A stretch of 64,000 bases of DNA from Phoronis australis. Taxonomy: Eukaryota; Animalia; Phoronida. Position numbers and translations under genes: made by a program. The notes beneath the pieces were generated by a model. It made no database searches. It saw only the letters and a list, made by a program, of their open reading frames with translations, and had not been told where the DNA came from. The DNA lies in the NCBI GenBank assembly GCA_002633005.1, contig NMRA01000007.1, forward strand, positions 1,192,362 through 1,256,361, written 5' to 3'. Positions 9,160-46,049 of this stretch are shown one piece after another. How positions within the stretch are numbered: position 1 is the first letter of the stretch; each line of letters opens with the position of its first letter.

Positions 9160-9195
9160 ATGGAGGATTTCCTGGAATATACCCACCTTAGTCTG
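9160..9195 (+). CDS. PRUNE2: Prune exon 1 ([12 protein letters not shown])
   Basis: Strong Kozak context CACCGCC-ATG-G; Prune-like N-terminus; GTAAGT donor; phase 0 matches exon 2. Confidence 0.85.
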
Positions 9196-18100: not shown

Positions 18101-21100
18101 AAAGAGAATCTGTTGTATTTTTGCAATTAATTCATTTCACTGAAACAACACTTGAATACGAGGATTCTTTTTTACCACGTTTCTTGCAGTATGCTCCTAA
18201 AGCAAAAACAAAATGACCTGAATTTCCAATCATGACAGGTTTAGGAATGACTGAAGTTTGTTGAAATGACGTCCATCAATTCCCTTTAAAATGTACGGTA
18301 AAGTGTCTCCAGTTTCAGATAAAACTTGTCTGAAGAGGTGGTCGACCAGTAATCAAGTTAGGTTTTAGAGCAGTTGTGCAAAGCGTTAATTGCATTACAG
18401 CTTTTGGTGTGCTGAATGAAATATGGAATTGCATTTGTATGGTGAAAGTTTTCTGTATAAATCTTTAATTGACTTGGTATTTATTCATTATCATCATAAA
18501 CGAATCCTGAAATTGCAACAGTGTTTTTGTCAAGATTGAAGTGATTGCTTTGACCTGCTGAAAGCAGTGTGGCTGACTGGTTCCATGACCAAACACTAGA
18601 TGGAGCTAAAGACAATGATTACAACCGTGGCTGCCTTTAGCCTCAAAATGTGCGTCATTTGTTTTCAGAACAATTTGGCGGGGTTTGAGACTATTCATGT
18701 CGTCATGGGTAACGAAGCTTGTGACTTGGACTCGGCAGCCAGCGCCATTGTCTACGCTTACTATCTGAGCCAGGTAGGTTGTGTCAGATGTTGAATGCTA
18801 ATTACAAAGTTTTTAAAGATCACAAGAAATTTTTAAACTGACAAGAAGTCATTTTCAACACTCGATATTGATGAAAATGAAGCCCTGCCATGAAAACAGC
18901 TGTCTCCAAAAGACAATCGTGACACAAGTTTATCACGTACATCTCTAGAGGGTGAAGCATAGCACATGGCAGTTTGAAGACGAATGCAGTGCCGACCCCC
19001 TGTGGCAGTTGTAGTTTTTGATATTTTTTTTGTTTGACACCACTTATTTTAATTTGTATTTCTTAAATTAAGCAGGTGTGTTTTAGTAATTTTCGTTGTT
19101 ATAACACGGCTATCCCCTGTGGCAATTTCATGTTTTTAATTTGGAGAATTTTGAAAATCTCGACAGATTTAAGGTAAACAATTTGATTTGAGGTTGTTTT
19201 ATAAACAATGTGCTACCAGCAACATTTTTGGTCGATTCTGATTAAAGCAGTGTTCCCGTTGCACAATGGCCTTGATTTCAATAAATTATTGACACAGTGT
19301 AAACTCTCTTCCTCTCCTTTTGATAAGTTTATATCTAAAGCGAAGTCCAAATAATATCGTTACAGTTGCAATTACAGCCTTTTCGCAGGTTCATGCAGTT
19401 GCTGTTGTAAGAGCCACTAAATTGCAGTTGTAGCCAGTAATACTCATTGTCTTGCAGCAACTCTTGATCTATTTTATTAAGGCAGCTGGGACTTGTAGCA
19501 AGGCTGAGATCATTGCTTAGCATGTTGTCAACTTGTCAAGTACGCTGGGGGATTTATTTAGTTCAAAGGATGATTTGGAGTTTGCACCGGTGACCCGGAT
19601 TGCAACTCTTTTGACATGTGGACTAGTCTTAATATTTTTTAAAAGATATTTAACGCTTGTATTACTTGAGCTCACCGTTTGCGATGCACCAGTTGGCCTG
19701 AAATCAAGGCTTTCCATTGATTCTGTGCTGTTAAGACAATACCTGTTAATAAGTGGTACTAACCACCTTTTTTGACTGTGACCTCTCTTGACTAGAGGCT
19801 GCCAAATTACCTCAGTCTGTAATGATTTAAAGCGATCGACAAACGCAAAAGTGTTCGCTCGAACATACGAGTGATGGCGTATTTGCTACTCGTTTTCCCA
19901 GGTTCAGGCTTGTAAGGAATATTGGCCAAAAGAAAAATGCCATATATCTGCTCCGCGCCGTTCGAATAACACGAGTGCAGTCAATTTACTACTCGCATTT
20001 TCCTTGTTTGGGCGTTTACTCGTTCATGTCGAGGCCTGATTTAACTAGCTAATACCTTTCCTAGCAGCAAGGTAACATCCTCTATATTAAAAACCTCTTG
20101 GAATGAGGTATGGCTTATTCAAGATTAGCAATAGACACAATTAGATGATGAATGTGTTAAATCAATATGAAACGTGCTGGCTCAGTGGTTTTCCTGTGTG
20201 CTTCGGACTATTTTCTTCTAATACATTGGGCTCAACATTTTTCTGCTCAGGTAATGCGAACACGTCACATTTAATTACAATTTATACATAACACGTTTTT
20301 CTTATCTGTAGTGTTTCGTGATGCTGCCAAGTGATTTAATTAAGGTAGATAGACACCTAATTGAGATCATGGGTGCATCTAAGTTGTAAAAAATAAAACC
20401 AAAAAATTTAAAATCATTGGTTTTGTTTCTGTATTATCTTCACATAGTTTTCCATTTGTAAAATTTCCTTAAGATTTGACTCATTTGTTCAATATTCACT
20501 CTGCATCTTCCTGTGTTGGCGTCAAGATATTTGGTTCATGTTCAGAGACAAAAAGAAATTAAAATAGACCCTAAAGATTTCAGAATTTGTACCCCCTGCG
20601 CGCAAATGGTCAGAAGTGTAAGACAGACCCTTTATCTAGATTGAGAAACGTTACAAACATGGACGACATAGCTATCTACGACACAAACAGTTACAGCATT
20701 TTGTGTAGGAAATAGTCAGATGTAAGGTGCCCTTACTTTGAGAACCAGTTTGATGCCCGTTATTTAGTGGAGAAAACTGGTTCTCAAAATTTTCTGCGCG
20801 TTATGTCCGACAATTGCCTTTTACATGTAATGTTTATCTTTATTTGGTTTAAGGCAGGTGAATTTGGAAAAAATCCCAACATGACTTTAGGATTTTTTAC
20901 CTGCACATACAGTCTACCCTAAAAGTAAACTGACAAAATACAGCACAAGGCAAAAGTAATTGGACAAAATATAATATGCACCAAAAAGTTGCTGGGTTAT
21001 TATTCGAACTATGTTTTGCACACAAGTACAATTATATTAGAATGCGCATGAGCCAAAAGGGTCATTTTGTGTCCTCTTCATTAAAGAGTGGATACTTTTC

Positions 21101-24100: not shown

Positions 24101-27100
24101 CCCAGCACACTGAGGCATCTTCTGGACCAGGAGGGTTCCTTACTCAGATATGATTTCTGGGCTTGCGAAGAGGTGACAGTTTGTAGTAGCTTGAGATTTG
24201 AGACCAATTTCAATAATTTGACGAGACCTGGTTAGTCATCCTGTTGGGGCACCAATACTTTCTTCATGGACAGATAAAACGACTCTTTTTATCATTTGTG
24301 TCTTGTCGGTCAGCAATGCCCTTATTACGGAATAGTTTTTGTAACATTCAGTGCTCTGTTGCAGCTGTTGTAATGGCCATACTGCATGTTATTGACTGCA
24401 CATTACAACTATCGGTGGGCACGTTGCAGCGAGTGTTAGCTGTTGAATTAGTCATACTGTGTCTTAAAACAGTCTGTGGACAAGTTACAACAAATTGTAA
24501 CTGTTATAATAGTCATACTGCATCTTAATATCTACATGCTACAGCAGTCTGTGGACGTATTACAGCAAATTTTAGCTGTTGAAATAATCATACAACATCG
24601 TAATCTCTATGTGTTATTACAGTCTGACACATCACAGCAAATTGCAGCTTTTGAAAAAGTCTCGCTACATTAATCTATTGTTGCAGCAATCTACGGACAC
24701 ATTGTGTCAAATTACAGCTGTCAAACTGTTCTTTTACAGTGCTGATGTGCACATCGAGATGGTTGGATCGTGCTGTACACTGGTGGCTGAGTTATGTTTG
24801 AAAGATGAAGTATTTAGAGTCTCGCCTCAATTGGCACAGCTGCTCTATGGTGAGTGATACCTGTCAAGTGTTCAGAGTGTGTCGCCATTTTGGCTCAAAT
24901 GGAATCTCACTTTTCCTCACCTGGTATCCTGAACTGGTAAGGTTGTATCATGTTCTCATTTCAAAATACATGCTAATCCTTCTCCAGTCATCGCATCAGT
25001 AAGGCTGATTGCTTAGTCCCGATTTTTGTAAGAGAAAGAGAGAGTGTGAAATGGGGTGAAATCTCATCTTATTCAGTTTCAAACAAAAATTGTCGTAAAA
25101 ATATTTTTTCATTTTTTAAAAATCTTTTAACGTTACCATGAAGTCACTCAGTTACTCAAAGTATTGTGTGATGACAGCTATCAAAATGTACATTGACACG
25201 ATAAAACATGAAATAACACCACACCAAACGTTTCACTTGTCTGCCATATTGTGTCTTAAGTTGGTAAGGTTTTACCGATAGATTGTAGTCCTTCACCCCC
25301 CTCTGAACGGGATGCTTATCCGTGGCAGATCATTTCCCAACCATGTCAGTAACTTAGTCGTTCATACAGCTGAGACAACGGAAGTCCAGAACTACGTATC
25401 CGCAAAAGGTGCAGTGACGGAGCATTGATCCCGTAACCTTTCAGTTGAGAGTTCACTGTATTACTGACCACTGAATTACTGAGAAACTTTCTCATACAAT
25501 CTGAACACAGAGGCTATTTAGCAGAAATGAGTTCTCAAATAAACAATATAGACTTTGGGTGATTGTTTAAACTCACTAATCTTGGATTTTTTGAAGCTTG
25601 AAAGCCAAAATACAGAGGTGAAAAACAAAAGGCGTGTTACCTGGTTGCACTACTTTGATGAACACTATCACATCTGCTAAACCGGATCACAAAACTGTAG
25701 AATATCCCCAGATTAGTTACAGGTTTTCTACAAGCGATTATTTCTCTTGCCTGTAATATCCCTCATTATCACGATTTAGCCGTGTACTAAGCCAGGCACT
25801 AATCTTCCTGTCAGGTCCTATACTACTGGATACCATAAATTTGTCGGAGACTTGCGGGAAGAAAACGGAGAAGGACGTCAAGATCATTACCACCATGGAG
25901 AAGTTTTTTCCTCAGATGAGACGGGACAAGACGTACACGGAACTACAGAAGGCTAAGTTTAATCTGTCAGGCACGTAAATCTGTCTATCATTCATACATT
26001 TCTTCTTGTTTAGTCGTCTGCTCATCCAAAACGAAGTTGCCCCTTCTAATTGAATGATGAAGTCCATTGTTCTCAAAATGCCAACAGGTTTCTTCTCAGT
26101 TCTTCTTGATAATTGGTCACGGTATTAACAAGTGAAAAGTAATTGATTTTTGATTTAGACCGCCATAAAATTGATCTCAAACTGTTCCTTAGTCAAAACA
26201 GGTGTGGTTCCTGGGCTTGGAAAAAACTGACAATTTGTTATTGTTTGAAACTGAGGCTCTACAAGATGATTTGTTAAAGCTTGCCATTTCATACACCGAG
26301 AATGTTCTCAAGGAATAACGGGGCGTCAGTTCTTTGCAAAACCAAAAACAATTTTCTCACCGAGAAATTGCAGTAAGTTGTCCAAATTAAAATTTTTTTG
26401 ATGGCAAATGGGTCATTGTCACTTTAATTAATGCATTATTGTGTGCATTGTAAATAAAAAATGTAAGGCTCATAAATTTTCTAACCTTTGTGTTGCTACT
26501 AAGATTGTTTTTAGTATTGTATTCATATGCATATGATGGTGTAGACTTGTGCAATCAACTGATAGTCTGACAGCCTTGGTAGGCTGTTGCATGTGATGGG
26601 CAGCAGACAGTTTTCCACTGAATTCAAGCTAATAAATTCCATTTTTCAGGATTGTCAAATGTGGAGCTGTTCACACGTGACCTCAAGGTAGCCAAGTCAC
26701 AAACTATGGATATCGCTGTCAGTTCTATTACAATCAATATCGAGGTGAGAGACCGGGCACACCGTATCCATTTCAGCGTTCTCACTAGGGGTCTTCTTCC
26801 CAAAATGTGACTCAAGTCATAAATTTGATCTTGCGCTTCTGAAAGGCAATTAAATCTCACTTAATGAGCAAAAGTGCCAAGTCTTTGGTAAACGTAACTG
26901 CCAATTTCTGAGATAATTTTTATGCATTATTATTATGATTCAGTTTGAACTGCTGTGTTCTAAATTTAGGAGCTGTTGAAGCGCCCTCGTCTTCGACATG
27001 ACATGCGGGCGTTCCTAACCAAACGAGAGTTGGACGTTTTAGTCATCCTAACAATTCATTACCGCGGACCCAACAAACCCTTTCGCAATATCATCGTCTA

Positions 27101-30100
27101 TTGCTACAATGACCTCGTACGAAAAATGGTGAGTTTCCACTGGATGAACGTGAATTTACAGACTTTTGTGAAAATGGCACAATCTGTCTGTTGTGACTGT
27201 CTTTGTGTAAAGCTGTATACCGTAACTGAGTTATCTAGTTCCTGATTACACCAATAGGTGGGCCATTAAAGGTGCTATATACCGACCTTACGTCAGAAAA
27301 AACGGACTTCTATTTTGTCCTTTTACAGTACTGTCATGAAATTAGTCGAAATCACAGATAAAAATTTGAATCTAACACTGGAATTTGAAATAAAACTTAA
27401 TAGAGTTAGCAACGTTGCATCCGTCTCTCACAAACTTCAGCTTGGCTAGTGATGTTATTATTATTTTGGCTTATAGGTGGCGTTTTAACCTCTCTGCCTC
27501 GTCATCTGGTTAAAATGCCACCTATTAGCCAGAATAATAATAACATCACTAGCCAAGCTGAAGTTCGTGAGAGACGGATGCAACGTCGCTAACTCTAGTA
27601 AGTTTTATTTCAAATTCCAGTATAAAATTCAAATTTTTATTGGTGTTTTCTCACCTAGATGCCTCAAAATTTTCATGCTTTTAGTCGAAACCAGTTCCTT
27701 GCTCAGACTAGGGTGATTTCTGGCCTTTGAAGGAACTGATAGTTCACCATTGCTCCTTGCAACTTGTTCTCAGCCAATCAGTTTTTTCCTTTCCCAGTCC
27801 AGAAAGCCTTTGTCGTCTGAGTAAGGAAAGCATTGAGACCACACACATTTATAGCTGCAGCTAAAAGGTGTTTTCATTAAAGAGACATTTGTGTGTTAAC
27901 CACATGTATTTGTGGAAAGGCAACCAAAGCAGTTGAAAATTCCAAGTTATTGCTGCAGGACATCAATTAGTGATCTACGTCCAATTGATATTATGTCATG
28001 CAGTTGGGTAAGAACATAACATTGTATGCGTCATATGCTCCCGTGACGTGCCTCGTACAGGCACTAGTGGTCTTTGCATGTTTTATATTCATTTTTCCAA
28101 ACTGTTTCTGCAATGGTACCATGCAAATACTTCTTCAAAGTACAAGACATCCATTTCAAATAATATTTTTCTTTGCCTGAATTTTATCAAGTCATAATCT
28201 AGTGCTATTTTACCGTTGCTACCGTTGCCATTTCCCAGGTCGTAGATGTCTTGATGGCATCAGATAAACCTCCCCTTGACCTGATGCCAGTGTCTTGTAA
28301 GCTGGACAAGTGCGACGTCTTCGTCCAAGGAACAGTTACAGCCTCCCGCAAACACATTCTTCCCATCCTTAAGGACTTCCTAAGTAAGCAAGATGCAATG
28401 TTCGCTAACCGTCACGGCTTACCAACGGTTTCCGATTACATAGGTCTCCAGAGTCACCGGTCTATCGATGGACTCATGGAAAAGTGCAGTCGTCTGCTTT
28501 GTGTTTCAACTGAAGATGTGGCTAGTAGATCCAGTGTAATGGACGCCACCACCAGTCAGGTTACTGTAAAACGCTCCATGGTCAAGTCCAAGTCTGTCAT
28601 GGGGAAGAAATTTCTTTTCGAATAATTCGTGTTGCAAGAGGAATGCATAAGAAATAAAAAATTTTGCTACGCACTGGAAATGTTTTCATGACACTCAATA
28701 CCAAAATTGTTCAATGTTAGTGGAAATGGGATTTGGTCGCATGTCCACTAAACTTGAAATTTGATGCAAAAAGTATGTGGAATTGAAAATAGAGAATATC
28801 TTTGCTTTAACAGTTCCTTGGTAAATCTTTTCTTTTTAATTCCCATCCTTGATATTCTCTTACGTTGTTCTCATGTTAGCGGATTTAAAGTGCAGATGTT
28901 AATAGGTATGTTAATTTAAGTTTCATCTCAATTCAGTTGTTGTGTTCTGTTACCTTGTGTTATGTATATTTTTCTCTGATGTTTCCTTGTGTTTGGTTTA
29001 TGAGACTGGTTTTTTGGCTTTTTGCTTCGTGAATTGTTGCCGTGAATTACCGTCGTGTTTTTGTGTATTTTAGACAACCCACCTGACTTTAGTGAACTGG
29101 CAGAATGGCGCTCTGAACCGCCTGAAGACTTGAGCGAGAGTGATGAAGATGAAAATGGTAGTCTCAACGACGTTTGCGAAGACCAGGAAGAAGCAGAAGA
29201 GTCATTCGGAGAACACGAGGATCAGAAAACGACAACGTCTTCTAACGACCTGTTGTCAGTTCACACGTCTTTTTCTAATGGTGGAGTGTCATCTGAGTCA
29301 CTTGTCACACAGGGTTCTTCAGAAAATGACCAGTCAGCTGTGGACTTCCTCGGTGTCGTCACGGTCCCATCCACGTCTGTGCAGGACACTGCACCTCTGG
29401 AAAAGCAGGATTTATTTTCGTTTGACTTGTTGGGAAGCGACATTTCACAAGCTCAGAACAGTTCAGTACCAGCTGTTGCTACATCTGATGACCTGGATCT
29501 ATTTTCTGTGACAGGAACTGCTCAAGTTCAAACTAATGACATGTCGTCAGGCGACATATTTGGTAATTCAGATACATTTGGCAGTGACTTTTCTCTGGTG
29601 AGTTCAGATACCACGGATGTGTTTGGGCTTAATGTTTTTGCACCAAATGTTGACTCTGTGACGGGTAATAGGGATCAGGCAGACATGGTGTCTACGAATA
29701 TTGAACGTGCTAACAATACTATTGAGGATTCAGATCCTTTTGGTTTAGGACTGTCAAACAACGCAACGGCATCAAGTAACGTGATGTCAGAGGATTTCCC
29801 TGTCTCCGCAAATGTCCGTCCTTCCGTTATTGTATCTGAATCTGAAGACGCCAATGTATCTGTTGATTCACAAAAAGACATCATGGAGGATTTTGACCCT
29901 TTTTCATCTACACAGGGGTCACCGGTTGTCCTGAGTGGATATAACACACCCACCAAGAGATTAGAGTCTGAGGATCCTACTTCACAATACAGCAGCTATC
30001 CGTCGACGCCACCGAGCAGTTTTGTCGAGTCGAACATGGCGCACTATGCAAAAGAAACGGTTCTTCCCAGTTTTAACAACTCCGAAATGGTGCAGAGAAT

Positions 30101-33100
30101 TAAAGACAAGAAAGATAAGTTAGTGAAATCCGATTCTGCAGACGATGATAAAGGATCATCTTCCAGTCTGGTGGCTAGTAGCAATTTGCTGCATAGCGAT
30201 GATGAGCCCGTGATTCCGTTCACCCCCAGCAGTAGCTACCAGGAGTCGTCAGCCATACCAACCAAGGAGACGAATCTGCCCAGTTTCATGAACTCAGAGA
30301 TGGTGCAGAAAATACACGAGAAAAGAGGCGAACTCGGAGGCAGTGCTGCCGACAGCGATCCATACCCGTTCACTCCGCGAAATAGCTTCTGCGAAGGGGA
30401 CATGGATACATATGGGTCTGCAAATGGGAATTCAGCTGCGTTTCTACAGTCAAATCCTGACGAACTGAGGAGACTTGTTCATGAGAAAAAGAGGAGTATT
30501 GAAAGAGATCTCTCTCAGGACTTTTATGTTGACGAAGAGGATGTTGATGACAGTTTAGCTGGAAATGAAAATGAGACGGATGTAGGAAGTTCTGTTATTT
30601 CACCCCAGCATGTCAATAATGTGTCAACAGAGTGCAGCACGATACTTGAGCCTGAAATTGGTGGTCATACAGAGATCGTGCATACTCAGACTCTGGAAAA
30701 ATCCAATGATGAACAGGCAGTGGAAAATTCAGATAATGGGACTGCGGCTCAGAATCGAAAAGTGTCTTCTGACAGCATTCAGAATATTGCCAGTGTTGTG
30801 ACTCAGTCAATTATTAGTGCTGCTTTGGATTCTTTCCCCGTTGACATGGCTGGTTCCCTTGAGGACACATCTGGCACTGCTGCCAGCAGTCAGCAATGCA
30901 CCAATGATGGCAGCGGTGCTGAAACTTTGTTTCCCAGTGTCGCGATAACTGAACATGCAGTGGGCAGTGAGGAAATCCCTGTTGAGACGGATTATTTGTG
31001 TAACGTCGACCCGCTCAAAGGTCAAATGGATATCATTTACACTGACAAGAAATCGTTTGCAACGGATGCAGTGAAAGATGTTGCAGAGAGCACGAGCTTC
31101 GAACAGCTCCAAGCGGAATCTGCTGGAAAGGAGAAATCTGATGTTGGCAGTGATCAAACTGTTGAAGAGTATGAGGACGAGGCTGGAAATGAAGTTGAGA
31201 AAGAGATGACTGAAGAGGGCGCAAGTGAAACTGAAGATGTGTCGGAAGTTGTAGAGACATCTCCGGAAAAGGATAATTCTTTAGTCGTTGTTGGTGAGCA
31301 GGAAATAAAGGCACAGGGTAATGGTTATGTAAAGGATGGAGATGAATTTGGTGAAAAGATTGATGTAGAAAGTGCAGCAGGCGAGGAAGCCGAGATAAGT
31401 CCTGTCGTGGAATCTGCCATTAAGTTGGAAGAATCCAGTGGTACGGAGACAGCTTACGAATTCCCATCACCTGATGGTGGCTCGGACAGCGATTCTCCTG
31501 TCACTGAAGTCCTGAATATTGAGCAAGAGAGCCGTGTCAATGAAACGTTGTCTGTTGCCACCTCATCCCCCATTCGTAAGTCTCCTGAATTGCAAGCCAA
31601 TGTTTCCATCATTGAAGCGCCACCTGGTGAAGAGTCACCAAGTAGGATTAACTTGATTAATGGTGATGAGGGCGGCAAGTCTGCCCCAGCTCTGCCTGTT
31701 GGCCTAATGGAAGATATTGACCTGGGGCAGAGAGGAGAAGCAGAAGGTGCAGAAATTAACAAGGTTAGCATTTTTATCACAGACATATTTTAAGTCTGGT
31801 CAGCACACCACCTGTTGGCCACATCACATGACCACGTGCATATAAGTCTGAAACAATTTCTGCCCCAACCCTTTCTTAAGCCCGGGACCTTCTGCTTACG
31901 GTGCAGGTGCTCTAGTCCACTGAGCCATCGAGAATAATGGTATACATTTCCATGCCGGTTTAAGAATTACATATTTATGTTAGCATTTTTGTTGGGAGAT
32001 GTGCAGTTGGTCTGGGTTTGGAGTTTCATGGTATTGCTGGCATATTGGATTCAGTTCGTCTCTCTGAACTGTGCTGCTTTGCTTCAGATGTTTTACAAAC
32101 CATATTGCAGTGTTATTAAAAATCTGATTAATTAGAAGAACTTGATAAATTTGCTGGTAAAATGTGTCACGGTATTTGACAATAGAAAAGAAATTTTAAA
32201 AGATGAGATATTCATAGCTCTTGTGTTTCTAGTTTGAAAAACACTTCATGAACTATCCAGACATTTTGAACATGTTCATGGTATTATATTTCAGGGTTCT
32301 CGAACTCCAAGTATGTCTTCTGAAGAAATTGCTTTAACTGAGTTGACTGAGCAGATTCTCTCTGAAGATGATGACAAAGTTGGTTAGTACAGGATTTCTT
32401 TTTATATCTTTCCAATTTCGTATCAACGTTTGCGCTGTAGTTGTTTTACAGTCTTATGGTTGTTGCTTCCTGTTGACTTCATGAAGAAACACTGGTCGTC
32501 TTGAGACTTGGCCTTATGAAGTGCTAATTTTATGCGATTATCCTTTTTGTGAAGTGGATTTTCTATAGCTTGTTTCAACCTCTGCTATGAACTTTGTGTG
32601 GCTGGAAATATCATGTAATTCCACTTCAATTCTTAATTTCAAAACATTTTTTCAGAGTCTTAAATATTGATTGTAATGGACTTGGAAGGTTTTGACACCG
32701 CCATGAAGTCGTGAAATTTTTCAGAAGTCGTGAAATTTTTCAGAAGTCGTGAAATTTTTCAGAAGTCGTGAAATCCATTGATATTTTATTTTAACCATGT
32801 TTTGATTTGGTGACCTTGATAGGTCTCTTACAATAAAATTGCTCCAATTTTGAACACAATGTGGACGACTAGTGCTACATTTGTAGCACCAAATAAATGC
32901 ATTTCCTTGTTCAAGTTTTGTACCACAGCTACTATCGGACAAAGTTTTGGAAAACTGAGCATGTACAACAAGGATGGAAGCCCTTGAAAAATTAAAAAGG
33001 GCATTTTCAAACATTTTTGTCCAAAATTTGTGAGATTTTATCTTTAGTTGATATGTTTGCCTCCTTGATCCAGCCCGACCTCAGACACTGGATGCCAGTG

Positions 33101-36100
33101 GGGGAGCTGTGCCCAAGAAAAAGATCCATCCTAACCTGACTATGTTGGATGACGATGCGCAGAGTTACATGTCCAATGATGTCAACACTAGTAGCATACT
33201 GGCCATGATTGACGACATGAAGACTCCTGATGATCTTACTACACCAGATTTTGACAATTCTGTCTTGAGAGGGATTTCCACGGAAGGTGATTGATTTGAA
33301 ACTATACAAATATCTAGTTTAAGGGGAAAAAATAAACACGCCGCCCATCAAAGATGTTTGTTCACACTATTTTGCGTTTGAAAATTGTCCCCGGAATAGT
33401 CCTTATTTGTATCAGAAACAAGATTTTTGCTTGAAAAGAACCTCTGGTTTTGCTATTCCTCGAGATCAGGCGCAGTATATTGACTTGGCTTGGCGTGTCA
33501 TTTTATGAGAGAACTTAGAGTGCTTCCGAACCTCCTGAAGTCACTTCTAATCTGAGTATGCAACAAGTTGGGGCCAATTTTGATGTAGTTTGCAGTCTAA
33601 CCCTAAAGTTTTTTGTTTGGTAGTCGGTAAACCAACCCTTCTAAGTAGGGTTGGAAGTCTAGAAAGTGAAAGTGAAGAATCAAGTGCCGTACACATCACA
33701 CTCGAATAATTGCACACCAAACATTAACCTGCACATGTCGAAATTGCAATCGCGTGAACATATTTATCTTAAGAAATAATACAGCGAATATAACTGCATA
33801 GAAATTGCACCCTTTGGAAGAACGTATTCACTTGAAGATTCGACTTTTTAGTTTAATTTGCTTGTTGCTCTGCCATTTGCAATTTTGTTACCTACCGGTG
33901 AACTCATGAACTAAACATTCACTGAGCTTATTGGCTGTCATTCGATCAAAATCTAAGATTAGAATATGGCAGACGATTTGATTTGATGTTAGAGGAAGGT
34001 AAAAAGAGGTGAAATTAATTGGTAAGACTGTTTGTGGTTTTTTAAATGTGTCAAGGGAATTGATTTTGTTAGTACTAACACCCTGAACTCAAATTTTCCT
34101 CCCATTCTGTTGGTTTATATCTTTTTCACCAAGTATTGAAAAGACCTCCGGTGGACCTTCAGCTCTGTTTAAGAGCTGAGTATTGGTTAGGTTTATTGCA
34201 ACTCTAAATGTTTGTTCCTGCTTTGAGTATCTATAGTAAAGATTTTTCATTTGGAGACAAAAATAGAAATTTTAGTAAACTATAAGTTTCCCTTCATTTT
34301 CAGCATAGTCTTCAATTAAAATTTTGAGCTCTGCCTCTTACACCAGTCTTGAAAATGTCAATTTTTATAAAAATTGTCAAAAATTCAATTATGATTTTTT
34401 GTATTCTCATGACTTAATCACTTGGGTTGCTTTTGTTTAGTCCAGGAACTATTAGGCGTCATGTTTACTGACTCTTGTCTCTGTAGTCTCTCTGTAGCTG
34501 ATATGTCACAAATTTGTACTTTGAAATTAACATTATAAACTTTGCATTTTTCGTCGTTCAGAAGATTGGTCTGACACAAACATGAAAATTTTGTACTTTT
34601 TTGATGGCACAAAATTGTTCTACTTTGTTAGCGTAGCTGCATTAACCACAGTGGTCACAAAATGTTTTTAAACACTACATCGTACTTGTTAATTTTAGAC
34701 GACACGACACCCACGGGTGATACAACTCCTATCCCAGAATACAGTGCAGCAGATGAACTGGCCGACGAGCGACACTGGCGGAGTGTCACTATTGCCGGAA
34801 AACAGTACAAAGTGGACATGAAAGTGATCGAGCCCTACAAGAAGGTCCTGTCTCACGGCGGATACTATAACGGGTGCAACGCCATCGTCGTGTTTGCTGC
34901 CTGTTACATGCCAGACAGGAGTCGAAAGGATTACCATTATGTGATGGACCAACTGTTTCTGTGAGTAAACAGTTTATTATCAAGGGGTGCTCTCACTGCC
35001 TGGGTGCTCTCACTGCCTGGGTGCTCTCACTGCCTGGGTGCTCTCACTGCCTGTGTGCTCTCACTGCCTGGGTGCTCTCACTGCCTAGGTATGCAACAAC
35101 ATGCTGCTGAGTTGGCCACGTTTTGGGTAAACCGGATGTAACGTGCCTGCATTTTGAAAAACAGTTTTCTCCCCTGAAAATTGGGCATTAACTGCTTCTC
35201 AAATGGGGGCTCGTAATATCTGACTATTGACACTTCTTTGAACAGAAGATCTTACAAGGTGGTCCATGCTGACCCAAAGAACCATTATGCGGACATTAAT
35301 GTCAGAAAATTTCAACAATTATATGTTGCTGCTGAACAGGGGAGGTAACGTGCATGGGGAAAAGAGATTTTATTATGTTAGGGTTTGAATGTATACTCCA
35401 TTTCAACTTATTCCCATCTAGAATTTGTTGAATTACCCCAAGGTTACAAACTGAAAAGACAATTTTAATTGTCTTTTCAGTCAACTTAAAAGTTGTTTTG
35501 TGTAAAAGGTTTCTCAACTGAAGTGTCATGATTTCCCACAATTTTTTTTGGCTCGACAGCGCATAGACAAACCTAAAACACACTGCAACAGTGCCATCTA
35601 TTGTCACTCGGTGCCTCCTCAGCAGGTGATAAATTTTGACAATGCATATATCGTTTGTTATGAGAACAACACCCCTCTGATTACACATCAAAGAGTCCCT
35701 GCAGATTCTTGAATAGAAAGCATTCCTGTCACTCATTAACAATATTCCGTCATACCTTGATTTGTGCATAACCCCCCCCCCCCACCCAAACTCCCTTTTC
35801 TCTCGCAGTCGTTGACTATATGGACTTATAATACCTGGTGTCTCCTATGATTCTGTCTGTCAGCAATGGTTTAAGTTCTAACCAAAACATTTTAATGCAC
35901 AACTCGTCATCTAACGAGTGGCAAATGTCAAAGATGACAACACTCATGAGTTGAGTAAAAGATAATTCATGACAAAACCACAACCTGTCAATCATATGGT
36001 GCTCATTACTAGAGTTGCAGTGTAGCATAAACAGAAGAAGTACATGGTGGAAGATGAACACATTTTAATGGAATTTTGTACTAAACTGCAAAGTAAACAG

Positions 36101-39100
36101 ATTAATAATATGCTTTTCAAACTGTTGCTCCAACTTCAGATAAAAGTCTTTGATAGTTATTACAACCATAGAAAAGTTTGTACTAAATATACTTGATAAA
36201 AAAGAGCATAGTGCAAAATGAAAAGTGTGTGGACTTCTAGAAATGTTTAATCACATGTTTGTGTAATGTAAGCATGTAGTTCCACTTTGCAACGAAATAC
36301 AAAGTTAAAACATAACTTTCAAATGTAGTTGGCACTGACCTCTTGTTGGTTGAGAAAAATGTATTAGATAAGCATGCTTTAGAGATTATTTTCATGAAAT
36401 TAATCACTTCTCAACCCTTGCACAAAACTTTATACTTGTTCTCAGGCCACCTGTAGCCCCATAGTTAAGAAATTTTAAAAAATTGATGTAATTGATTTGT
36501 CAAGATGTGGAAAAATATGAAACTATGAGAATTCCCACGACATTGCTCTTTAAGACCCTTACAGATTNAATTCATGACAAAACCACAACCTGTCAATCAT
36601 ATGGTGCTCATTACTAGAGTTGCAGTGTAGCATAAACAGAAGAAGTACATGGTGGAAGATGAACACATTTAAATGGAATTTTGTACTAAACTGCAAAGTA
36701 AACAGATTAATAATATGCTTTTCAAACTGTTGCTCCAACTTCAGATAAAAGTCTTTGATAGTTATTACAACCATAGAGAAGTTTGTACTAAATATACTTG
36801 ATAAAAAAGAGCATAGTGCAAAATGAAAAGTGTGTGGACTTCTAGAAATGTTTAATCACATGTTTGTGTAATGTAAGCATGTAGTTCCACTTTGCAACGA
36901 AATACAAAGTTAAAACATAACTTTCAAATGTAGTTGGCACTGACCTCTTGTTGGTTGAGAAAAATGTATTAGATAAGCATGCTTTAGAGATTATTTTCAT
37001 GAAATTAATCACTTCTCAACCCTTGCACAAAACTTTATACTTGTTCTCAGGCCACCTGTAGCCCCATAGTTAAGAAATTTTAAAAAATTGATGTAATTGA
37101 TTTGTCAAGATGTGGAAAAATATGAAACTATGAGAATTCCCACGACATTGCTCTTTAAGACCCTTACAGATTTACTGTAATTTTAAGTTGTGCAAAGCTG
37201 GGAATTGTGAATGTGAGAGTGAAAGGTTTTTCCTCCTTGTTTGTGTCGTTAATTTCTATTACTTTGTTGAAATAAATTGTTTACCAAAAAAATCACCCGA
37301 TTCTTCGTTTGTTCTAGCTATGTAGTTAGTACCCTGGAACTGCTGGTCGTCGATGACTACATGATTATATACTTCCACGGCGCAACACCAAAGAAACAGA
37401 TGCCTGGACTGTCATGGCTGAAGAAATGTTACCAGTGCATTGATAGAAGGCGAGTGTTATTACTGATGCTGTTGCATGCAATTATACTACGTCACTCACG
37501 CCATGATCTATAAAATTATAATGCAGGGTGCAAGTTGCAATCATTATGTTCTAAACATTGTACCACTGCTGCTAAAATAACACTTGTGATTAGGGTTTGA
37601 CACATTAATTTCTGAATAATTGACAAAGTTGTTTCCATTTTCAAAGACAGGCTGCATTACTACAAGTAAATTAGACCTTAGCTTTTATTTTCAATGATTT
37701 TTTTCGATCCTCATGCACTCAATTATCAATTGGCTTTTAGAATATTATAAATTCAGCGTAGTGTTCCGTTGTACTTAGTTGGTGTCGTATTGAACTTTCC
37801 CGTCATTACAGTATCCCACACTTGGTTTTGTCTGTCTTATCGGGGCTACCACAGGCAGACAGCTATGAGCTGAGCTGCCTGCCTGAGGTGAACAATAGCT
37901 GAACTGACAGCTCCTGTCAAGACACCTTCATTTAATTGTCATGTTTGTACGCCTTGGTGTGAGCCGTCAACTCGGCTGTCATTCACTCGAGGCAGACAGC
38001 TGAGCTCATAACTATCCTTCTTCGGGTGCCGTTAATTGTGGCTGTGATGTTTTGCTTTGTCATCTGACGTGTGTGATAAGTTGCCATGCTGTTCACGTTA
38101 ATCTTTTCTTCTTAATAGGCTACGGAAGAATTTGAAGAAACTGTACCTGGTTCATCCAACCATGTGGTTAAAGACTATTATGTTCCTGTCCAAGCCATTT
38201 ATCAGGTTTGATCGGATATCTAGTAACATTGAAAACTTCATATCCTGCTATTAACTGTTTTTATCAGGCGTTGCTTTATGACAGCGGTATGATGCAAACA
38301 ATCCTAACAATGGCCTCCATGATGTGAGCTAAACAGGTGAAGAATTGTCCGTAGTTGTCCACTCTACGATAATGATAATTCTGCACTTATTTTGCCCAAA
38401 AATAATTGCCAAAAGTGTCAGTTTTCAAAAGCTGATTACTTCGCTGAAAACAATGGAGCATTTACCAAAACGTTGTTTTATGACATCTTCTCAGTGCAAA
38501 CTGTGCCAACAGAAGACTAAACTTTTCTTCATTTTCATTTTTGTAGAGAAATACGAAGTATAATTTCACTTGCAAGCCAAATTGTGTGATCAGTAGATTA
38601 ATAATTACCGTATCCATAGTTACTTGCTGTATTTAACTTAAAGCGATTATAAACCGGACTCTTGTCTTAATCTTCTTTTTCATTTAGACCATTATTCATT
38701 ACAAAACGAGTCTCAACTTTTTCCTTACTCATAGGAGTGATTTCTTTGCTATGAAATAACTACCAGTTCATGATTTCTTGAGCCCATGCTCAATGTATTA
38801 GAGCCCATGCTCAGTGTATTAGTGTCCCAGCTTTGATAAGCCACCTTACACAGCTCATTCCAAGCAGTAAAGACTTGTCAATCATTTCTTCCCAAGTCCA
38901 GAAATCAACTCCAATGTGAGTAAGGAACGAGTTAAGACCAGTTTTATAACAGTTAGCAGTCTCACTAAACAAAGTTAATTTTTATAGTAGACCGGTTTGT
39001 TGCTGCTTTACCACAAATTCGGTGGGAGTAAATCTCCTATTTCTTATCGGTTTTTCAGCTCCAAGTTTTACCGCAAGGTGGTCTACGTGCCAACATTGAG

Positions 39101-39872
39101 TATGTTGTCAAGTGAGGTCAACTTGGAGTACGTTTACATTCCAAACGAGATTCGGAGGTAAGTTGCTGTCTTGTTGTATATTTCGTTGATTAATTATTTG
39201 TTTATATTGACTGCAACTACATATTTTTGAAGTAAATGTCAAGAGTGTTGAATCAAAATGGAGCATTTTGTACATCAAAATATTTATCCTTGATCCCAAG
39301 TGAACATACTTTTTAAGATTTATTCCTAGACTTTTTTGTATATCTAGTATGAGTTACATACTAGACTTACAAATAAAACTTGGAGGAGGATTAAAAGAGT
39401 ATTCTACTTACATTAAATTAGCTACAAAGAGGCGTTCTGTGCAAGAAACTCACGTTTGCTCTAGATCACTTGTCGCGCGCTATGAAATTGGTCTCAACTC
39501 AATCTTTACTCAGATGTTTGAACTGTATGTACAGTAAACATTTTAATTTCGGATGAAAGTTATTGTTGAAATTAGCATTTTCCTATCTCAAAAGCATACT
39601 TTGTCATTCACCAAAAGTCAATTAGTGACACAGGTCTTCAGTATAAGGCGACCTTATTAAAGGTAACTTCCTTAATATTGGAGAAATTTGATGCACAGTG
39701 AAATCCCATTTTTTCCTGTCAAAATGTGCCCTGAGAAAAATTTTAGCCATTGTATTTGTAAATATGGTGTTCGTTAATACAGAGTCCCTAATTATTCTCA
39801 TGTTTCTCATGATTATCTCGATGTTTATGTCTTATTGTAAGGTATGACAGTAAGCTATACGCCCACTCGTAG
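9160..39872 (+). CDS. PRUNE2: Prune homolog with C-terminal BCH domain (PRUNE2/BMCC1-like architecture; DHH exopolyphosphatase/phosphodiesterase + acidic disordered linker + BNIP2/CRAL-TRIO domain), 16 coding exons, about 1562 aa
   Basis: join(9160-9195,18669-18773,22187-22467,24740-24849,25815-25970,26650-26744,26970-27128,28239-28383,29074-31763,32295-32382,33074-33286,34699-34960,37318-37449,38119-38205,39059-39157,39842-39872). All intron phases are compatible; total 4689 nt. Prune motifs [38 protein letters not shown]; BCH motifs [37 protein letters not shown]. Confidence 0.9.
11734..13612 (-). mobile_element. Third copy of the Harbinger-like MITE, split by an insertion of about 1.35 kb
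   Basis: 11734-11950 matches the reverse complement of 4320-4550; 13300-13612 matches the reverse complement of 4090-4320. Confidence 0.7.
12877..12977. mobile_element. Short CAG...-ended MITE with 5-bp TSD (hAT5-like)
   Basis: CAGGGGCAGAT...ATCCGCCACGG flanked by ACATC on both sides. Confidence 0.6.
16841..17332. mobile_element. hAT-type MITE
   Basis: TIRs CAGGCCTTTATGCAG / CTGGATAAAGGCCTG; 8-bp TSD GTTGGAAG/GTTGGAAA; subterminal GGACRCCC repeats. Confidence 0.8.
18669..18773 (+). CDS. PRUNE2: Prune exon 2 (DHH motif I)
   Basis: TTTTCAG acceptor, [41 protein letters not shown] donor. Confidence 0.93.
20339..20921. mobile_element. Putative Kolobok-like MITE (TTAA-type target)
   Basis: TTAA-GGTAGATAG at left, CAGTCTACC-CTAA at right. 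Confidence 0.4.
22187..22467 (+). CDS. PRUNE2: Prune exon 3 (LVDHN and IDHH motifs)
   Basis: Pyrimidine tract + TAG, ...[13 protein letters not shown]...[15 protein letters not shown] donor (phase 2). Confidence 0.93.
22490..24110 (-). mobile_element. Decayed L1/Tx1-type LINE 3' part in Prune intron 3
   Basis: Frameshifted minus-strand peptides [60 protein letters not shown]; AATAAA/A-rich tail near 22500. Confidence 0.7.
23312..23481. repeat. Perfect 34-bp tandem repeat x5
   Basis: Unit CACGTGAAAACGTTATACTTTTGAATGTTAATGT starting at 23312, 23346, 23380, 23414, 23448. Confidence 0.97.
24355..24725. repeat. Degenerate minisatellite, 60-75 bp unit, about 5 copies
   Basis: Recurring AGCTGTT..TAGTCATAC..CAGTCTGTGGAC..TTACAGCAAATT blocks. 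Confidence 0.7.
24740..24849 (+). CDS. PRUNE2: Prune exon 4
   Basis: [17 protein letters not shown]...LAQLLY; CAG acceptor, GTGAGT donor. Confidence 0.92.
25262..25480 (-). mobile_element. Decayed tRNA-derived SINE
   Basis: Eroded tRNA-like head on - near 25420-25478 plus a CGGGATGCT..CCCA body resembling invertebrate SINE2 cores; recognised by eye only. Confidence 0.4.
25815..25970 (+). CDS. PRUNE2: Prune exon 5 (ends at a GC donor)
   Basis: [21 protein letters not shown]...LQKAKFNLS; donor CAG|GCACGT needed for phase. Confidence 0.88.
26650..26744 (+). CDS. PRUNE2: Prune exon 6 (DHHA2 start)
   Basis: [32 protein letters not shown]; TTTTTCAG acceptor, GTGAGA donor. Confidence 0.88.
26970..27128 (+). 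CDS. PRUNE2: Prune exon 7
   Basis: [16 protein letters not shown]...[17 protein letters not shown]; TAG acceptor, GTGAGT donor. Confidence 0.87.
27353..27645. mobile_element. Fold-back MITE: arms of about 138 bp, 17-nt spacer
   Basis: 27353-27490 is a near-perfect reverse complement of 27508-27645. Confidence 0.9.
28239..28383 (+). CDS. PRUNE2: Prune exon 8 (end of DHHA2); frame stays open to a stop at 28625
   Basis: [15 protein letters not shown]...[19 protein letters not shown]; donor A|GTAAGC is phase 1 and matches exon 9. Confidence 0.87.
28653..28658 (+). promoter_or_regulatory. Candidate internal polyadenylation signal for a short Prune isoform
   Basis: AATAAA 27 nt after the stop (28625) of the extended exon 8 frame. 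Confidence 0.5.
29074..31763 (+). CDS. PRUNE2: Prune exon 9, 2.7-kb acidic Ser/Glu/Asp-rich disordered linker
   Basis: 912-aa ORF in the track; TTTTAG acceptor phase 1; AAG|GTTAGC donor phase 0. Confidence 0.88.
31862..31933 (-). mobile_element. tRNA-derived SINE head / pseudo-tRNA
   Basis: On -: A-box TGGCTCAGTGG, D-arm and anticodon arm with CGT; degenerate T-arm/B-box. Confidence 0.55.
32295..32382 (+). CDS. PRUNE2: Prune exon 10
   Basis: [29 protein letters not shown]; TTTCAG acceptor; G|GTTAGT donor bridges phase 0 to phase 1. Confidence 0.7.
32705..32774. repeat. 19-bp tandem repeat x3.7 (GAAGTCGTGAAATTTTTCA)
   Basis: Read directly from the sequence. Confidence 0.95.
33074..33286 (+). 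CDS. PRUNE2: Prune exon 11 (BNIP2-family N-terminal region)
   Basis: [26 protein letters not shown]...IDDMKTPDD resembles the BNIP2/caytaxin upstream segment. Confidence 0.8.
34699..34960 (+). CDS. PRUNE2: Prune exon 12 (BCH domain)
   Basis: IPEYSAADE...[31 protein letters not shown]...[11 protein letters not shown]...YVMDQLF; GTGAGT donor. Confidence 0.93.
34985..35086. repeat. 17-bp tandem repeat x6 (GGGTGCTCTCACTGCCT)
   Basis: Read directly; begins 24 nt after the exon 12 donor. Confidence 0.97.
35964..37172. repeat. 604-bp direct duplication around an N (probable assembly overlap)
   Basis: 35964-36567 and 36569-37172 are identical except for the two substitutions I noticed; the N at 36568 sits exactly at the junction. 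Confidence 0.9.
37318..37449 (+). CDS. PRUNE2: Prune exon 13 (BCH; ends at a GC donor)
   Basis: [43 protein letters not shown]; donor AAG|GCGAGT. Confidence 0.92.
37857..38015. mobile_element. Small palindromic MITE
   Basis: Imperfect inverted arms of about 55 bp (TATGAGCTGAGCTGCCTGCCT / AGGCAGACAGCTGAGCTCATA). Confidence 0.7.
38119..38205 (+). CDS. PRUNE2: Prune exon 14 (BCH)
   Basis: [30 protein letters not shown]; phase 2 at both ends. Confidence 0.92.
38700..38950. mobile_element. Dispersed MITE family with TCCTTACTCA...TGAGTAAGGAA inverted ends (related pieces near 24135, 27690-27840, 39485, 61420-61505)
   Basis: Shared GTCTCAAC/TTCCTTACTCAG and CCAGAAATC...TGAGTAAGGAA words. Confidence 0.6.
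39059..39157 (+). CDS. PRUNE2: Prune exon 15 (BCH)
   Basis: [32 protein letters not shown]; TTTTTCAG acceptor, GTAAGT donor. Confidence 0.9.
39842..39872 (+). CDS. PRUNE2: Prune exon 16, last coding exon ([10 protein letters not shown]-stop)
   Basis: AAG acceptor in phase 2 gives the YD expected after IPxxI in BCH domains; TAG stop. Confidence 0.72.
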
Positions 39873-40171
39873 ACGCGTCAGGTAAAGATCTTTCTTTAGC
39901 CAGGTGATCTGTTCTTGTTTAGTTTTAGAGCTGAACTTGTCCGTCTGCTTTCCACGTCTTCTGCTCCTGACATTGGTAGAAAAAGACACTAATATGCTTG
40001 TATTTAACTTTCTGTTTCAGAACACCCTAATCAGAACTGACATAGTGTTCACACGTCAATTACTTTGAAACCTACATTCAAAGTTGCCGAAATAATCTAA
40101 TGCAGTGTCCCTGTCAAAATCTGAAATTTCTTGCAGAAGTTTAATTTTCTGTCCACTTTGTGTTGTTTGAC

Positions 40172-45284: not shown

Positions 45285-46049
45285 TTAATCCCGCCTTCCA
45301 CAAAACTGAATAACACCGTATTTGCCAGAAATCATCCAATCGGCATCTTGCTCTTCAGTCGCTTTATCTTGTCCAGGTTCAAGACCCACTACAACGTCTG
45401 CTTTTAATGTTCGGAATGAACAGACGGGTGCCGGATGGAAACCCTGCAGTGCCACCTCATATGACGTAGTGTGATCCCACATGCGATCTGCCACCAGTTT
45501 ACGGTAGTTTAAGTCGCCCTTGAAATATACAAGGTCAGATTTAGCCAATTCGTTGTACAAATCTGGTGCATACATCTTCATTTGACTGTAGTCTAAAGGT
45601 GAAGTCCAGAATAAATGCTCCGAAGACCTCAGTGACCCCGATTCGAATCGCTCACTCCATTTTTGTCCAAGTTTCGACATATAAATACTATTGGATGCCA
45701 GGAATGTCTGCAAAACCCACGTCAAGTCATGAGGGACAACATCGGAAACAAACCAGGGCATTGCTTTAGGATGAAAGACAATCTCATTGACTAATCCGGC
45801 ATCCAGTAAGAACTCGGCAAAACATAAGTCACTGATGACCTCGAATCCTGCGTTATCCAGCACAATGTCCACTCGTACATTTCCTGGTTTGTTCTGGTTG
45901 GCCGTTTTCAGGCACTCGAGGACTTGGTCTGTGTGGTTAACCAATATGAATGGATTGAACTGATCCAACTGGTCAAGGGGGTTAACCTCATCGCTACACT
46001 GTACACCAGCCGAAATGGACAGGTCAAACTTGTTCCCCCACAAACACAG
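45285..46049 (-). CDS. ARMT1: ARMT1 exon 6 (catalytic core)
   Basis: 257-aa ORF in the track; DNAG, FKGDLNYRK and RTLKAD motifs; TTTCAG acceptor. Confidence 0.95.
   Translation of the reverse strand: MCLWGNKFDLSISAGVQCSDEVNPLDQLDQFNPFILVNHTDQVLECLKTANQNKPGNVRVDIVLDNAGFEVISDLCFAEFLLDAGLVNEIVFHPKAMPWFVSDVVPHDLTWVLQTFLASNSIYMSKLGQKWSERFESGSLRSSEHLFWTSPLDYSQMKMYAPDLYNELAKSDLVYFKGDLNYRKLVADRMWDHTTSYEVALQGFHPAPVCSFRTLKADVVVGLEPGQDKATEEQDADWMISGKYGVIQFCGRRD

What the first reader, a model, noticed from the sequence alone, without database searches (positions are those of the whole stretch)
28239..28660. One locus may encode both a PRUNE1-like enzyme and a PRUNE2-like scaffold via an exon-8 splice-or-polyadenylate switch
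Seen: exon 8 has a good donor at 28384 in phase with the giant exon 9. The same frame also stays open for 80 further codons in AT-rich DNA, stops at 28625 and is followed by AATAAA at 28653. Read-through gives a DHH-only protein of about 442 aa ending HGLPTVSD...[13 protein letters not shown]. Known (from memory): human PRUNE1 is DHH-only, of similar size, with a GLPKLS...FEKCSQI tail, and lies directly upstream of the BCH gene BNIPL, whereas PRUNE2 is a Prune-BCH fusion. Inference: this could be the ancestral single-gene state, with the short and long isoforms later partitioned among vertebrate paralogues.
Basis: partly seen in the sequence, partly recalled or inferred. Interest (0 to 1): 0.78.

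Follow-up and report, generated by a model that had tools for sequence, protein, structure and literature searches.

The report
Prune–BCH gene with splice-or-stop switch
RNA reads show that this single animal gene either stops after exon 8 or splices on into a giant exon, which likely yields a free polyphosphate-cutting enzyme or the same enzyme tied to a long trafficking scaffold, and vertebrate PRUNE1 likely arose by truncating the long form rather than by inheriting the short one.

Summary
The switch is real. In two stranded RNA runs, reads splice 28383→29074 (7 and 6 reads) and also run unspliced through the 80-codon extension, fading out at the AATAAA (28653), with zero depth over 28663–29019. 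The gene model gives a 442-aa DHH-only protein and a 1562-aa Prune–BCH protein. The extension is 46% GC, not AT-rich.

The evolutionary reading mostly fails. The conserved PRUNE1 tail motif also lies inside shark PRUNE2 (57 and 44 bits) and matches a repeat in invertebrate linkers (hhalign 92.9%). That repeat occurs three times in exon 9 and not in the extension. The extension matches only the motif's second half (2.1 bits); its EKCS occurs in 2 of 101 PRUNE1 tails. So PRUNE1 is likelier a truncation inside the exon-9-like linker.

An unnamed cephalopod-like protein pair splits short/long at nearly the same point, with an unrelated 3-residue tail. Human PRUNE2 has a published extended-exon short isoform. 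The mechanism is ordinary intronic polyadenylation; the new leads are the repeat and the fission reading.

The parts
9160..9195 (+). Exon 1 coding part (ATG in gccATGG context)
   Evidence: N-terminus aligns with Prune homologues; not covered by reads laid here
18669..18773 (+). Exon 2, DHH motif I (NEACDLDS)
   Evidence: the intron after it maps to c.132 of pika PRUNE1, the position given for human intron 2 in PMC8569853
22187..22467 (+). Exon 3, DHH motifs II and III (LVDHN, IDHH)
   Evidence: Pfam DHH weak, E 0.0094, below the curated cut-off for this single exon; yeast PPX1 2QB6 E 0.009; 349 homologues
24740..27128 (+). Exons 4-7 (24740-24849, 25815-25970 with a GC donor, 26650-26744, 26970-27128): rest of DHH and DHHA2
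   Evidence: exon 7 to exon 8 join shown by 35 and 38 loose ends; the intron after exon 4 maps to c.520
28239..28383 (+). Exon 8, shared part; ends the DHHA2 domain ([14 protein letters not shown])
28384..28389 (+). Alternative 5' splice site GTAAGC (phase 1)
   Evidence: junction reads 7 and 6; 6 of 9 match to the U1 consensus, like most donors of this gene
28384..28625 (+). 80-codon extension of exon 8; C-terminus of the 442-aa short isoform
   Evidence: unspliced stranded reads; GC and codon bias
28653..28658 (+). AATAAA, likely poly(A) signal of the short isoform
   Evidence: only hexamer in intron 8; depth ends in this bin; cleavage site not shown
29074..31763 (+). Giant exon 9: acidic, low-complexity linker with two DPF motifs
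   Evidence: first 426 nt covered by reads
29994..30122 (+). TPx(N/S)S...LPSFN repeat, copy 1 (aa 670-712 of the long form)
   Evidence: 51.9 bits to a profile of 30 invertebrate copies built without the window
30213..30338 (+). Repeat copy 2 (aa 743-784)
   Evidence: 33.1 bits
30363..30416 (+). Repeat copy 3, first half (aa 793-810)
   Evidence: 18.5 bits
32295..39881 (+). Exons 10-16: BNIP2 region and BCH domain; predicted stop in the exon at 39842-39881
   Evidence: Pfam BNIP2 E 1.9e-19; 52-62% identity to BCH of the 10 best homologues; splice model from sequence only, no reads laid here

Best explanation
This Prune-BCH gene makes two messages, one spliced from exon 8 into giant exon 9 and one that reads on through exon 8 and ends near an intronic AATAAA, which likely give a free 442-aa short-chain exopolyphosphatase and a 1562-aa form that likely ties the same enzyme to an endocytic, Rho-linked scaffold. 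Shown: both RNA paths; the open, coding-like extension; catalytic residues shared by both forms; three linker repeats, two DPF motifs and the BCH domain confined to the long form. Inferred: the 28384 donor competes with cleavage and polyadenylation after 28653, as at any composite internal/terminal exon. Inferred: the 80-aa tail is a lineage-specific cap. Inferred: vertebrate PRUNE1 arose after gene duplication by a stop placed just behind the TPxNS repeat of the long linker, with the BCH half left as a separate gene, while PRUNE2 kept the fusion and lost catalytic residues.
For: RNA: junction reads and terminal extension, no depth in the rest of intron 8 or at the end of intron 7. Coding-like composition. 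Equivalents of PRUNE1 D30, D106 and R128 are kept as D33, D109 and H131 (residues from PMC7788287 passages; yeast PPX1 also has His there). Elephant-shark PRUNE2 has NKVCGLDS in motif I. A profile of 101 PRUNE1 tails finds the motif inside elephant-shark PRUNE2 and a zebra-shark Prune-BCH protein at 57.3 and 43.5 bits and in a pseudoscorpion linker at 16.1 bits, against 2.1 bits for the extension. The invertebrate repeat profile matches the PRUNE1 tail profile over 36 columns (P 92.9%, E 3.8e-7) and scores the extension no better than 434 of 1000 shuffles. Cephalopod-like pair P0047/P0317: identical for 369 aa, then a 3-residue short tail or the long linker. Human PRUNE2 aa 575-904 binds AP-2 (PMC3765211 passages). 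Four vertebrate BNIP-2-type groups from two genome duplications, one such gene in the invertebrates examined (PMC3313917 passages).
Against: The extension's second-half match to PRUNE1 tails is not nil: 4.9 bits and 1 of 1000 shuffles with a 6-sequence profile; 2.1 bits, 8 of 2000 shuffles and 17 of 1622 real 80-aa tiles with the 101-sequence profile. The window's own exon-9 repeats score only 3.7-4.0 bits to that same profile, and pairwise tests of two of them against six PRUNE1 tails reached p<0.05 in 5 of 12, so the link to PRUNE1 runs through profiles and through PRUNE2. No poly(A) reads or 3' end were seen. Only 13 junction reads in two runs of one study. No close relative's DNA was found, so selection on the tail and the intron position elsewhere are untested. 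The cephalopod-like split is known from proteins only and lies 6 residues further on. PRUNE1-BNIPL adjacency is recalled, not tested.
Confidence: 0.72

Rival explanations
1. One reading: the extension is homologous to the PRUNE1 C-terminus, the switch is ancestral, and vertebrates shared the short and long isoforms out between PRUNE1 and PRUNE2.
For: Same position and similar size (442 aa against 454 for pika PRUNE1); weak second-half match above most shuffles; human PRUNE1 appears to have no intron at this point, since its exon 8 carries the 3'UTR (PMC8569853 passage) and window intron 7 maps to about c.936; a cephalopod-like short form exists.
Against: PRUNE2 holds the whole motif internally, which a spliced-out tail could not give. 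The extension lacks the TPxNS half and CPL (99 of 101 tails) and needs a 10-residue insertion to join GLP to the helix. EKCS occurs in 2 of 101 tails, though mammals are few in this sample. Other short invertebrate forms have unrelated or almost no tails.
Confidence: 0.12
2. The short message is a leaky, neutral by-product of a cryptic intronic poly(A) signal, and its tail has no selected role.
For: No relative of the tail among 326 proteins, in the protein search, the Atlas or metagenome contigs, although these blanks are weak. A two-base variant changes two tail residues (MV to II) in 9 of 9 and 4 of 10 reads.
Against: The short path is the commoner one next to the donor (depth ratio 0.66 and 0.82; inflated by 3' bias if the libraries were poly(A)-selected). 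An 80-codon open frame with exon-like GC and frame-specific codon bias is unlikely in neutral intron DNA. Variant sites are 2 in 242 nt against 14 in 426 nt of exon 9 (Fisher p 0.06, not significant).
Confidence: 0.13

Closest known systems
Human PRUNE2/BMCC1 (BMCC1-1 long form; BMCC1-2 short form)
   Same: Prune + giant linker + BCH in one gene; a short N-terminal isoform made from an extended exon that ends in the intron (BMCC1-2, extended exon 6; PMC2655648 passages); the TPxNS motif inside the linker (shown for shark proteins).
   Different: BMCC1-2 stops at exon 6, before the DHHA2 domain is complete (inferred from the exon map), and a later paper's legend calls it obsolete (PMC3765211). 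Here the switch is at exon 8, leaves the enzyme whole and is abundant. Motif I is intact here and altered in elephant-shark PRUNE2.
Vertebrate PRUNE1 (short-chain exopolyphosphatase, DHH/DHHA2)
   Same: About 39-41% identity over the 362-aa core; catalytic residues kept; 2 of 2 testable intron positions shared (c.132, c.520); similar length of the short form.
   Different: PRUNE1 is a separate gene, and its tail carries the TPMNS...CPL...GLP motif that overlaps the NME1-binding globule (aa 413-439, PMC3584926 passages). The short form here lacks that motif; its relatives lie in exon 9.
Invertebrate Prune-BCH proteins (amphioxus XP_066270782, Saccoglossus XP_002731053, Anneissia XP_033127283, Ylistrum XP_060083778, Argonauta GAB1610613)
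   Same: Same domain order; linker motif in one to three copies.
   Different: No DHH-only isoform was among the cluster members listed for these five, but clusters need not hold all isoforms. Nemerteans (Lineus 365 aa, Tubulanus 368 aa) are annotated as DHH-only proteins.
Composite internal/terminal exons (intronic polyadenylation; the immunoglobulin mu secreted/membrane switch is the recalled textbook case)
   Same: A 5' splice site competing with a downstream poly(A) signal, giving two C-termini.
   Different: Only the gene; no regulator or condition was shown here.

Membership tests
Prune/PPX1-type DHH exopolyphosphatase | DHH and DHHA2 domains with metal-binding Asp residues and the DH(H/R) motif | tested here: met
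   Aligned residue for residue with PRUNE1 proteins; Pfam DHH weak on exon 3 alone; PPX1 2QB6 hit
Prune/PPX1-type DHH exopolyphosphatase | Hydrolysis of short-chain polyphosphate | not testable with these tools
   Needs an enzyme assay
Prune-BCH fusion (PRUNE2-like, group I BCH) | C-terminal BNIP2 region and BCH domain in frame with the Prune domain | tested here: met
   Exon 8-9 junction reads; open model to BCH; Pfam BNIP2; BCH blastp. Joins after exon 9 rest on sequence only
Composite exon with intronic polyadenylation | Both a spliced path and an unspliced terminal path from one donor | tested here: met
Composite exon with intronic polyadenylation | Poly(A) tail added 10-30 nt after the hexamer | tested here: inconclusive
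   Depth ends at the AATAAA bin, but no poly(A) loose end was listed
PRUNE1-type C-terminal tail | TPMNS...CPL...GLP...E..EK motif | tested here: not met
   Extension scores 2.1 bits, second half only; first half and CPL absent
Sole Prune gene of this genome (ancestral single-gene state) | No separate DHH-only Prune gene | not testable with these tools
   No genome held; no second copy within the window

The most novel reading that the evidence does not exclude
The ancestral bilaterian Prune was an active polyphosphatase fused to BCH through a linker carrying an undescribed repeat (TPxNS...LPSF/L...helix). A stop point just after the enzyme domain, used as a switch in molluscs and perhaps fixed in nemerteans, lets animals choose between a free and a scaffold-bound enzyme. 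Vertebrate PRUNE1 plus BNIPL are one split copy of this gene, and the NME1-binding tail of PRUNE1 is a surviving copy of the repeat, so PRUNE2 and invertebrate long forms should bind the same partner through it.
Probability: 0.35. Interest if true: 0.6.

Novelty: new variant of a known kind. Interest (0 to 1): 0.42.

Why it matters
PRUNE1 is a disease gene and PRUNE2 a poorly understood giant protein. The comparison points to a conserved linker motif shared by the PRUNE1 tail, the interior of PRUNE2 and invertebrate long forms, which gives a concrete binding element to test. It also offers an animal in which one gene supplies both a free and a tethered Prune enzyme, so the role of tethering can be studied by isoform. 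The switch mechanism itself is ordinary, and human PRUNE2 has a precedent.

Tried and rejected
No whole genome was held, so a second Prune gene could not be sought. Protein searches with exon 8 plus extension and with exon 3 against longer proteins found nothing (weak blanks). Atlas searches gave no usable hit for the extension and only an unnamed 0.76 lead for the repeat region. No RNA holder was indexed; runs came by species label. Metagenome scans for the extension and for PRUNE1 exon 8 found no relative, so intron positions elsewhere and PRUNE1-BNIPL adjacency stay untested. Alignment A1 misplaced three exons and was dropped. Intron retention was rejected because depth is zero over 28663-29019. 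Internal priming at the A-rich run 28650-28662 was considered; it is unlikely for fragmented, stranded libraries (own knowledge), but library selection is 'unspecified', so it is not excluded. The extension is not a copy of exon 9 or of a window repeat (best other blastn E 0.2). Trees did not place the window's protein in any supported group smaller than 34 rows (quick method, none). The careful 70-row tree did not finish. Paper searches for the fission or isoform idea returned 0 papers; the library holds open-licence papers only. The 99 of 101 TPMNS count is largely by construction, because tails were picked by that motif; the CPL, GLP and EKCS counts are not.

Full report
Observation. Exon 8 runs 28239-28383 and is followed by GTAAGC; exon 9 starts at 29074 in the same phase. 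Without splicing, the frame continues 80 codons to a stop at 28623-28625, and the only poly(A) hexamer in the intron is AATAAA at 28653. A model built from the window gives 442 aa for read-through and 1562 aa for the spliced path. An open run of 80 codons has probability about 0.0095 per intron, and the other 15 of 16 donors read through 0-38 codons. Its codon score of 6.6 bits exceeds all 651 overlapping intron windows (maximum 3.5) and its other two frames; this score partly reflects GC.

RNA. No indexed RNA holder was listed, but runs of the same species label were. About 18-19% of each of three raw runs was laid on 28000-29500. X1 (134 reads) and X2 (115 reads) are stranded and show the 28383-29074 junction in 7 and 6 reads. 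They also show unspliced depth of 23, 20, 13, 8, 2 and 32, 28, 22, 9, 2 over 28408-28662, then zero over 28663-29019. Exon 7 joins exon 8 in 35 and 38 loose ends. X3 gave 6 reads, all in exon 9; the contig run X4 gave none. The extension is thus a terminal exon piece and not a retained intron. Next to the donor the short path makes up 0.66 and 0.82 of depth, a figure likely inflated by 3' bias. No poly(A) end was listed, so cleavage after 28653 is inferred. The rest of the gene has no read support here.

The protein. Exon 3 found 349 homologues, of which 150 were listed; an alignment search listed 120 of 766. The 362-aa core is about 39-41% identical to its best matches, mostly vertebrate PRUNE1. 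It keeps the equivalents of D30, D106 and R128, the active-site residues described in PMC7788287 (passages). Elephant-shark PRUNE2 has an altered motif I. Two window introns map to c.132 and c.520 of pika PRUNE1, the positions given for human introns 2 and 4 in PMC8569853 (passage). The 3' exons encode a BNIP2/BCH domain. Of 73 listed homologues aligned to the end of the core, 13 carry BCH, among them amphioxus, acorn worm, crinoid, two bivalves, Argonauta, a tick and sharks. PRUNE1 and PRUNE2 form one clade in a quick tree (SH-aLRT 99). PMC3313917 (passages) reports one BNIP-2-type gene in the invertebrates it examined and four vertebrate groups from two genome duplications. The fusion is therefore likely ancestral, and both isoforms here are likely active enzymes.

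The tail. Behind the core, invertebrate long forms carry one to five copies of a motif, TPx(N/S)S...LPSFN...EMV..I. A profile of 30 copies, built without the window, finds three in exon 9 (51.9, 33.1 and 18.5 bits) and none in the extension (434 of 1000 shuffles score as well). That profile matches the PRUNE1 tail profile over 36 columns (P 92.9%, E 3.8e-7). A profile of 101 distinct PRUNE1 tails finds the motif inside elephant-shark PRUNE2 and a zebra-shark Prune-BCH protein at about aa 615-630 (57.3 and 43.5 bits) and in a pseudoscorpion protein (16.1 bits). The extension scores 2.1 bits, on the helical second half only; 8 of 2000 shuffles and 17 of 1622 real tiles reach that. With six tails it scored 4.9 bits, 1 of 1000 shuffles. 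The resemblance is slightly above chance but lacks the first half and CPL (99 of 101), and EKCS is in 2 of 101 tails of a sample with few mammals. Against my reading, the window's own repeats score only 3.7-4.0 bits on the vertebrate profile. The decisive point is PRUNE2: if PRUNE1's tail came from a segment that the long isoform splices out, PRUNE2 should not hold it. The simpler history is a duplicate truncated just after the linker motif. In human PRUNE1 this motif overlaps the NME1-binding globule, aa 413-439 (PMC3584926 passages; overlap inferred from the pika sequence). That BNIPL lies directly behind PRUNE1 is recalled and untested (one search found no DNA).

Is the switch wider? The repeat region scores 169-244 against molluscs and an annelid, 102-147 against arthropods and similar unnamed proteins, and 57-68 against invertebrate deuterostomes. 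The genome is likely lophotrochozoan, and earlier notes on it say mollusc; trees did not resolve it. Unnamed P0047 (371 aa, 6 contigs), sister to Argonauta in the tree, and P0317 (1217 aa) are identical for 369 aa and then diverge, 6 residues further on than here; the short form ends SIF. A Ser at that point fits phase-1 read-through, as in the window, but no DNA was available to check it. Nemertean proteins are annotated as DHH-only, and one horseshoe-crab paralogue has several short alternative ends. Short forms recur, but their tails are unrelated (best blastp E 0.34 among 326 proteins).

Mechanism. Shown: two RNA paths from one donor. Inferred: the donor (6 of 9 U1 match, ordinary for this gene) competes with polyadenylation; the short protein is a free enzyme; the long one adds three repeats, two DPF motifs (AP-2 binding by DPF is recalled) and BCH. 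Human PRUNE2 aa 575-904 binds AP-2 and the protein is endosomal (PMC3765211 passages).

Known and new. Composite terminal exons are a known class, and human PRUNE2 has a short isoform from an extended exon 6 (PMC2655648 passages). PMC12663043 (passages) added nothing on DHH-only isoforms. Four searches for the fission or isoform-partition idea found no paper in a library limited to open-licence texts; supplements were not read. Verdict: observation confirmed, interpretation partly supported, new variant of a known kind, interest 0.42.

Noticed in passing
window 29020-29073: Low stranded depth (2.0 in X1, 0.4 in X2) just upstream of the exon 9 acceptor, with no other AG nearby, and X3 reads only in exon 9. 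This could be an internal start giving a Prune-less BCH form, as in human BMCC1-3/4, or pre-mRNA.
   Followed up: no
window 42525-42549: A possible second last exon, in phase with the donor at 39158 and ending IEEDVKK-stop, beside the one at 39842-39881.
   Followed up: no
window 25971 and 37450: Two of the gene's introns have GC donors in the model.
   Followed up: partly
window 45285-52200, minus strand: Convergent ARMT1-like damage-control phosphatase gene (Pfam E 6.8e-62 for the last exon; further exons read by eye).
   Followed up: partly
P0006 (JGI, 1615 aa): A deep-branching protein with CH domains, Prune and BCH almost adjacent, on a contig of under 10 kb; the Prune-BCH fusion may be older than bilaterians.
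   Followed up: partly
window 36560-37170 against 35965-36575: A near-perfect tandem duplication of about 610 bp with an N at its border, possibly an assembly artefact (read by eye).
   Followed up: no
window 29074-29499: Exon 9 is polymorphic between reads and assembly: 14 sites in 426 nt, 9 of 15 variants non-synonymous, against 0 in exon 8.
   Followed up: partly
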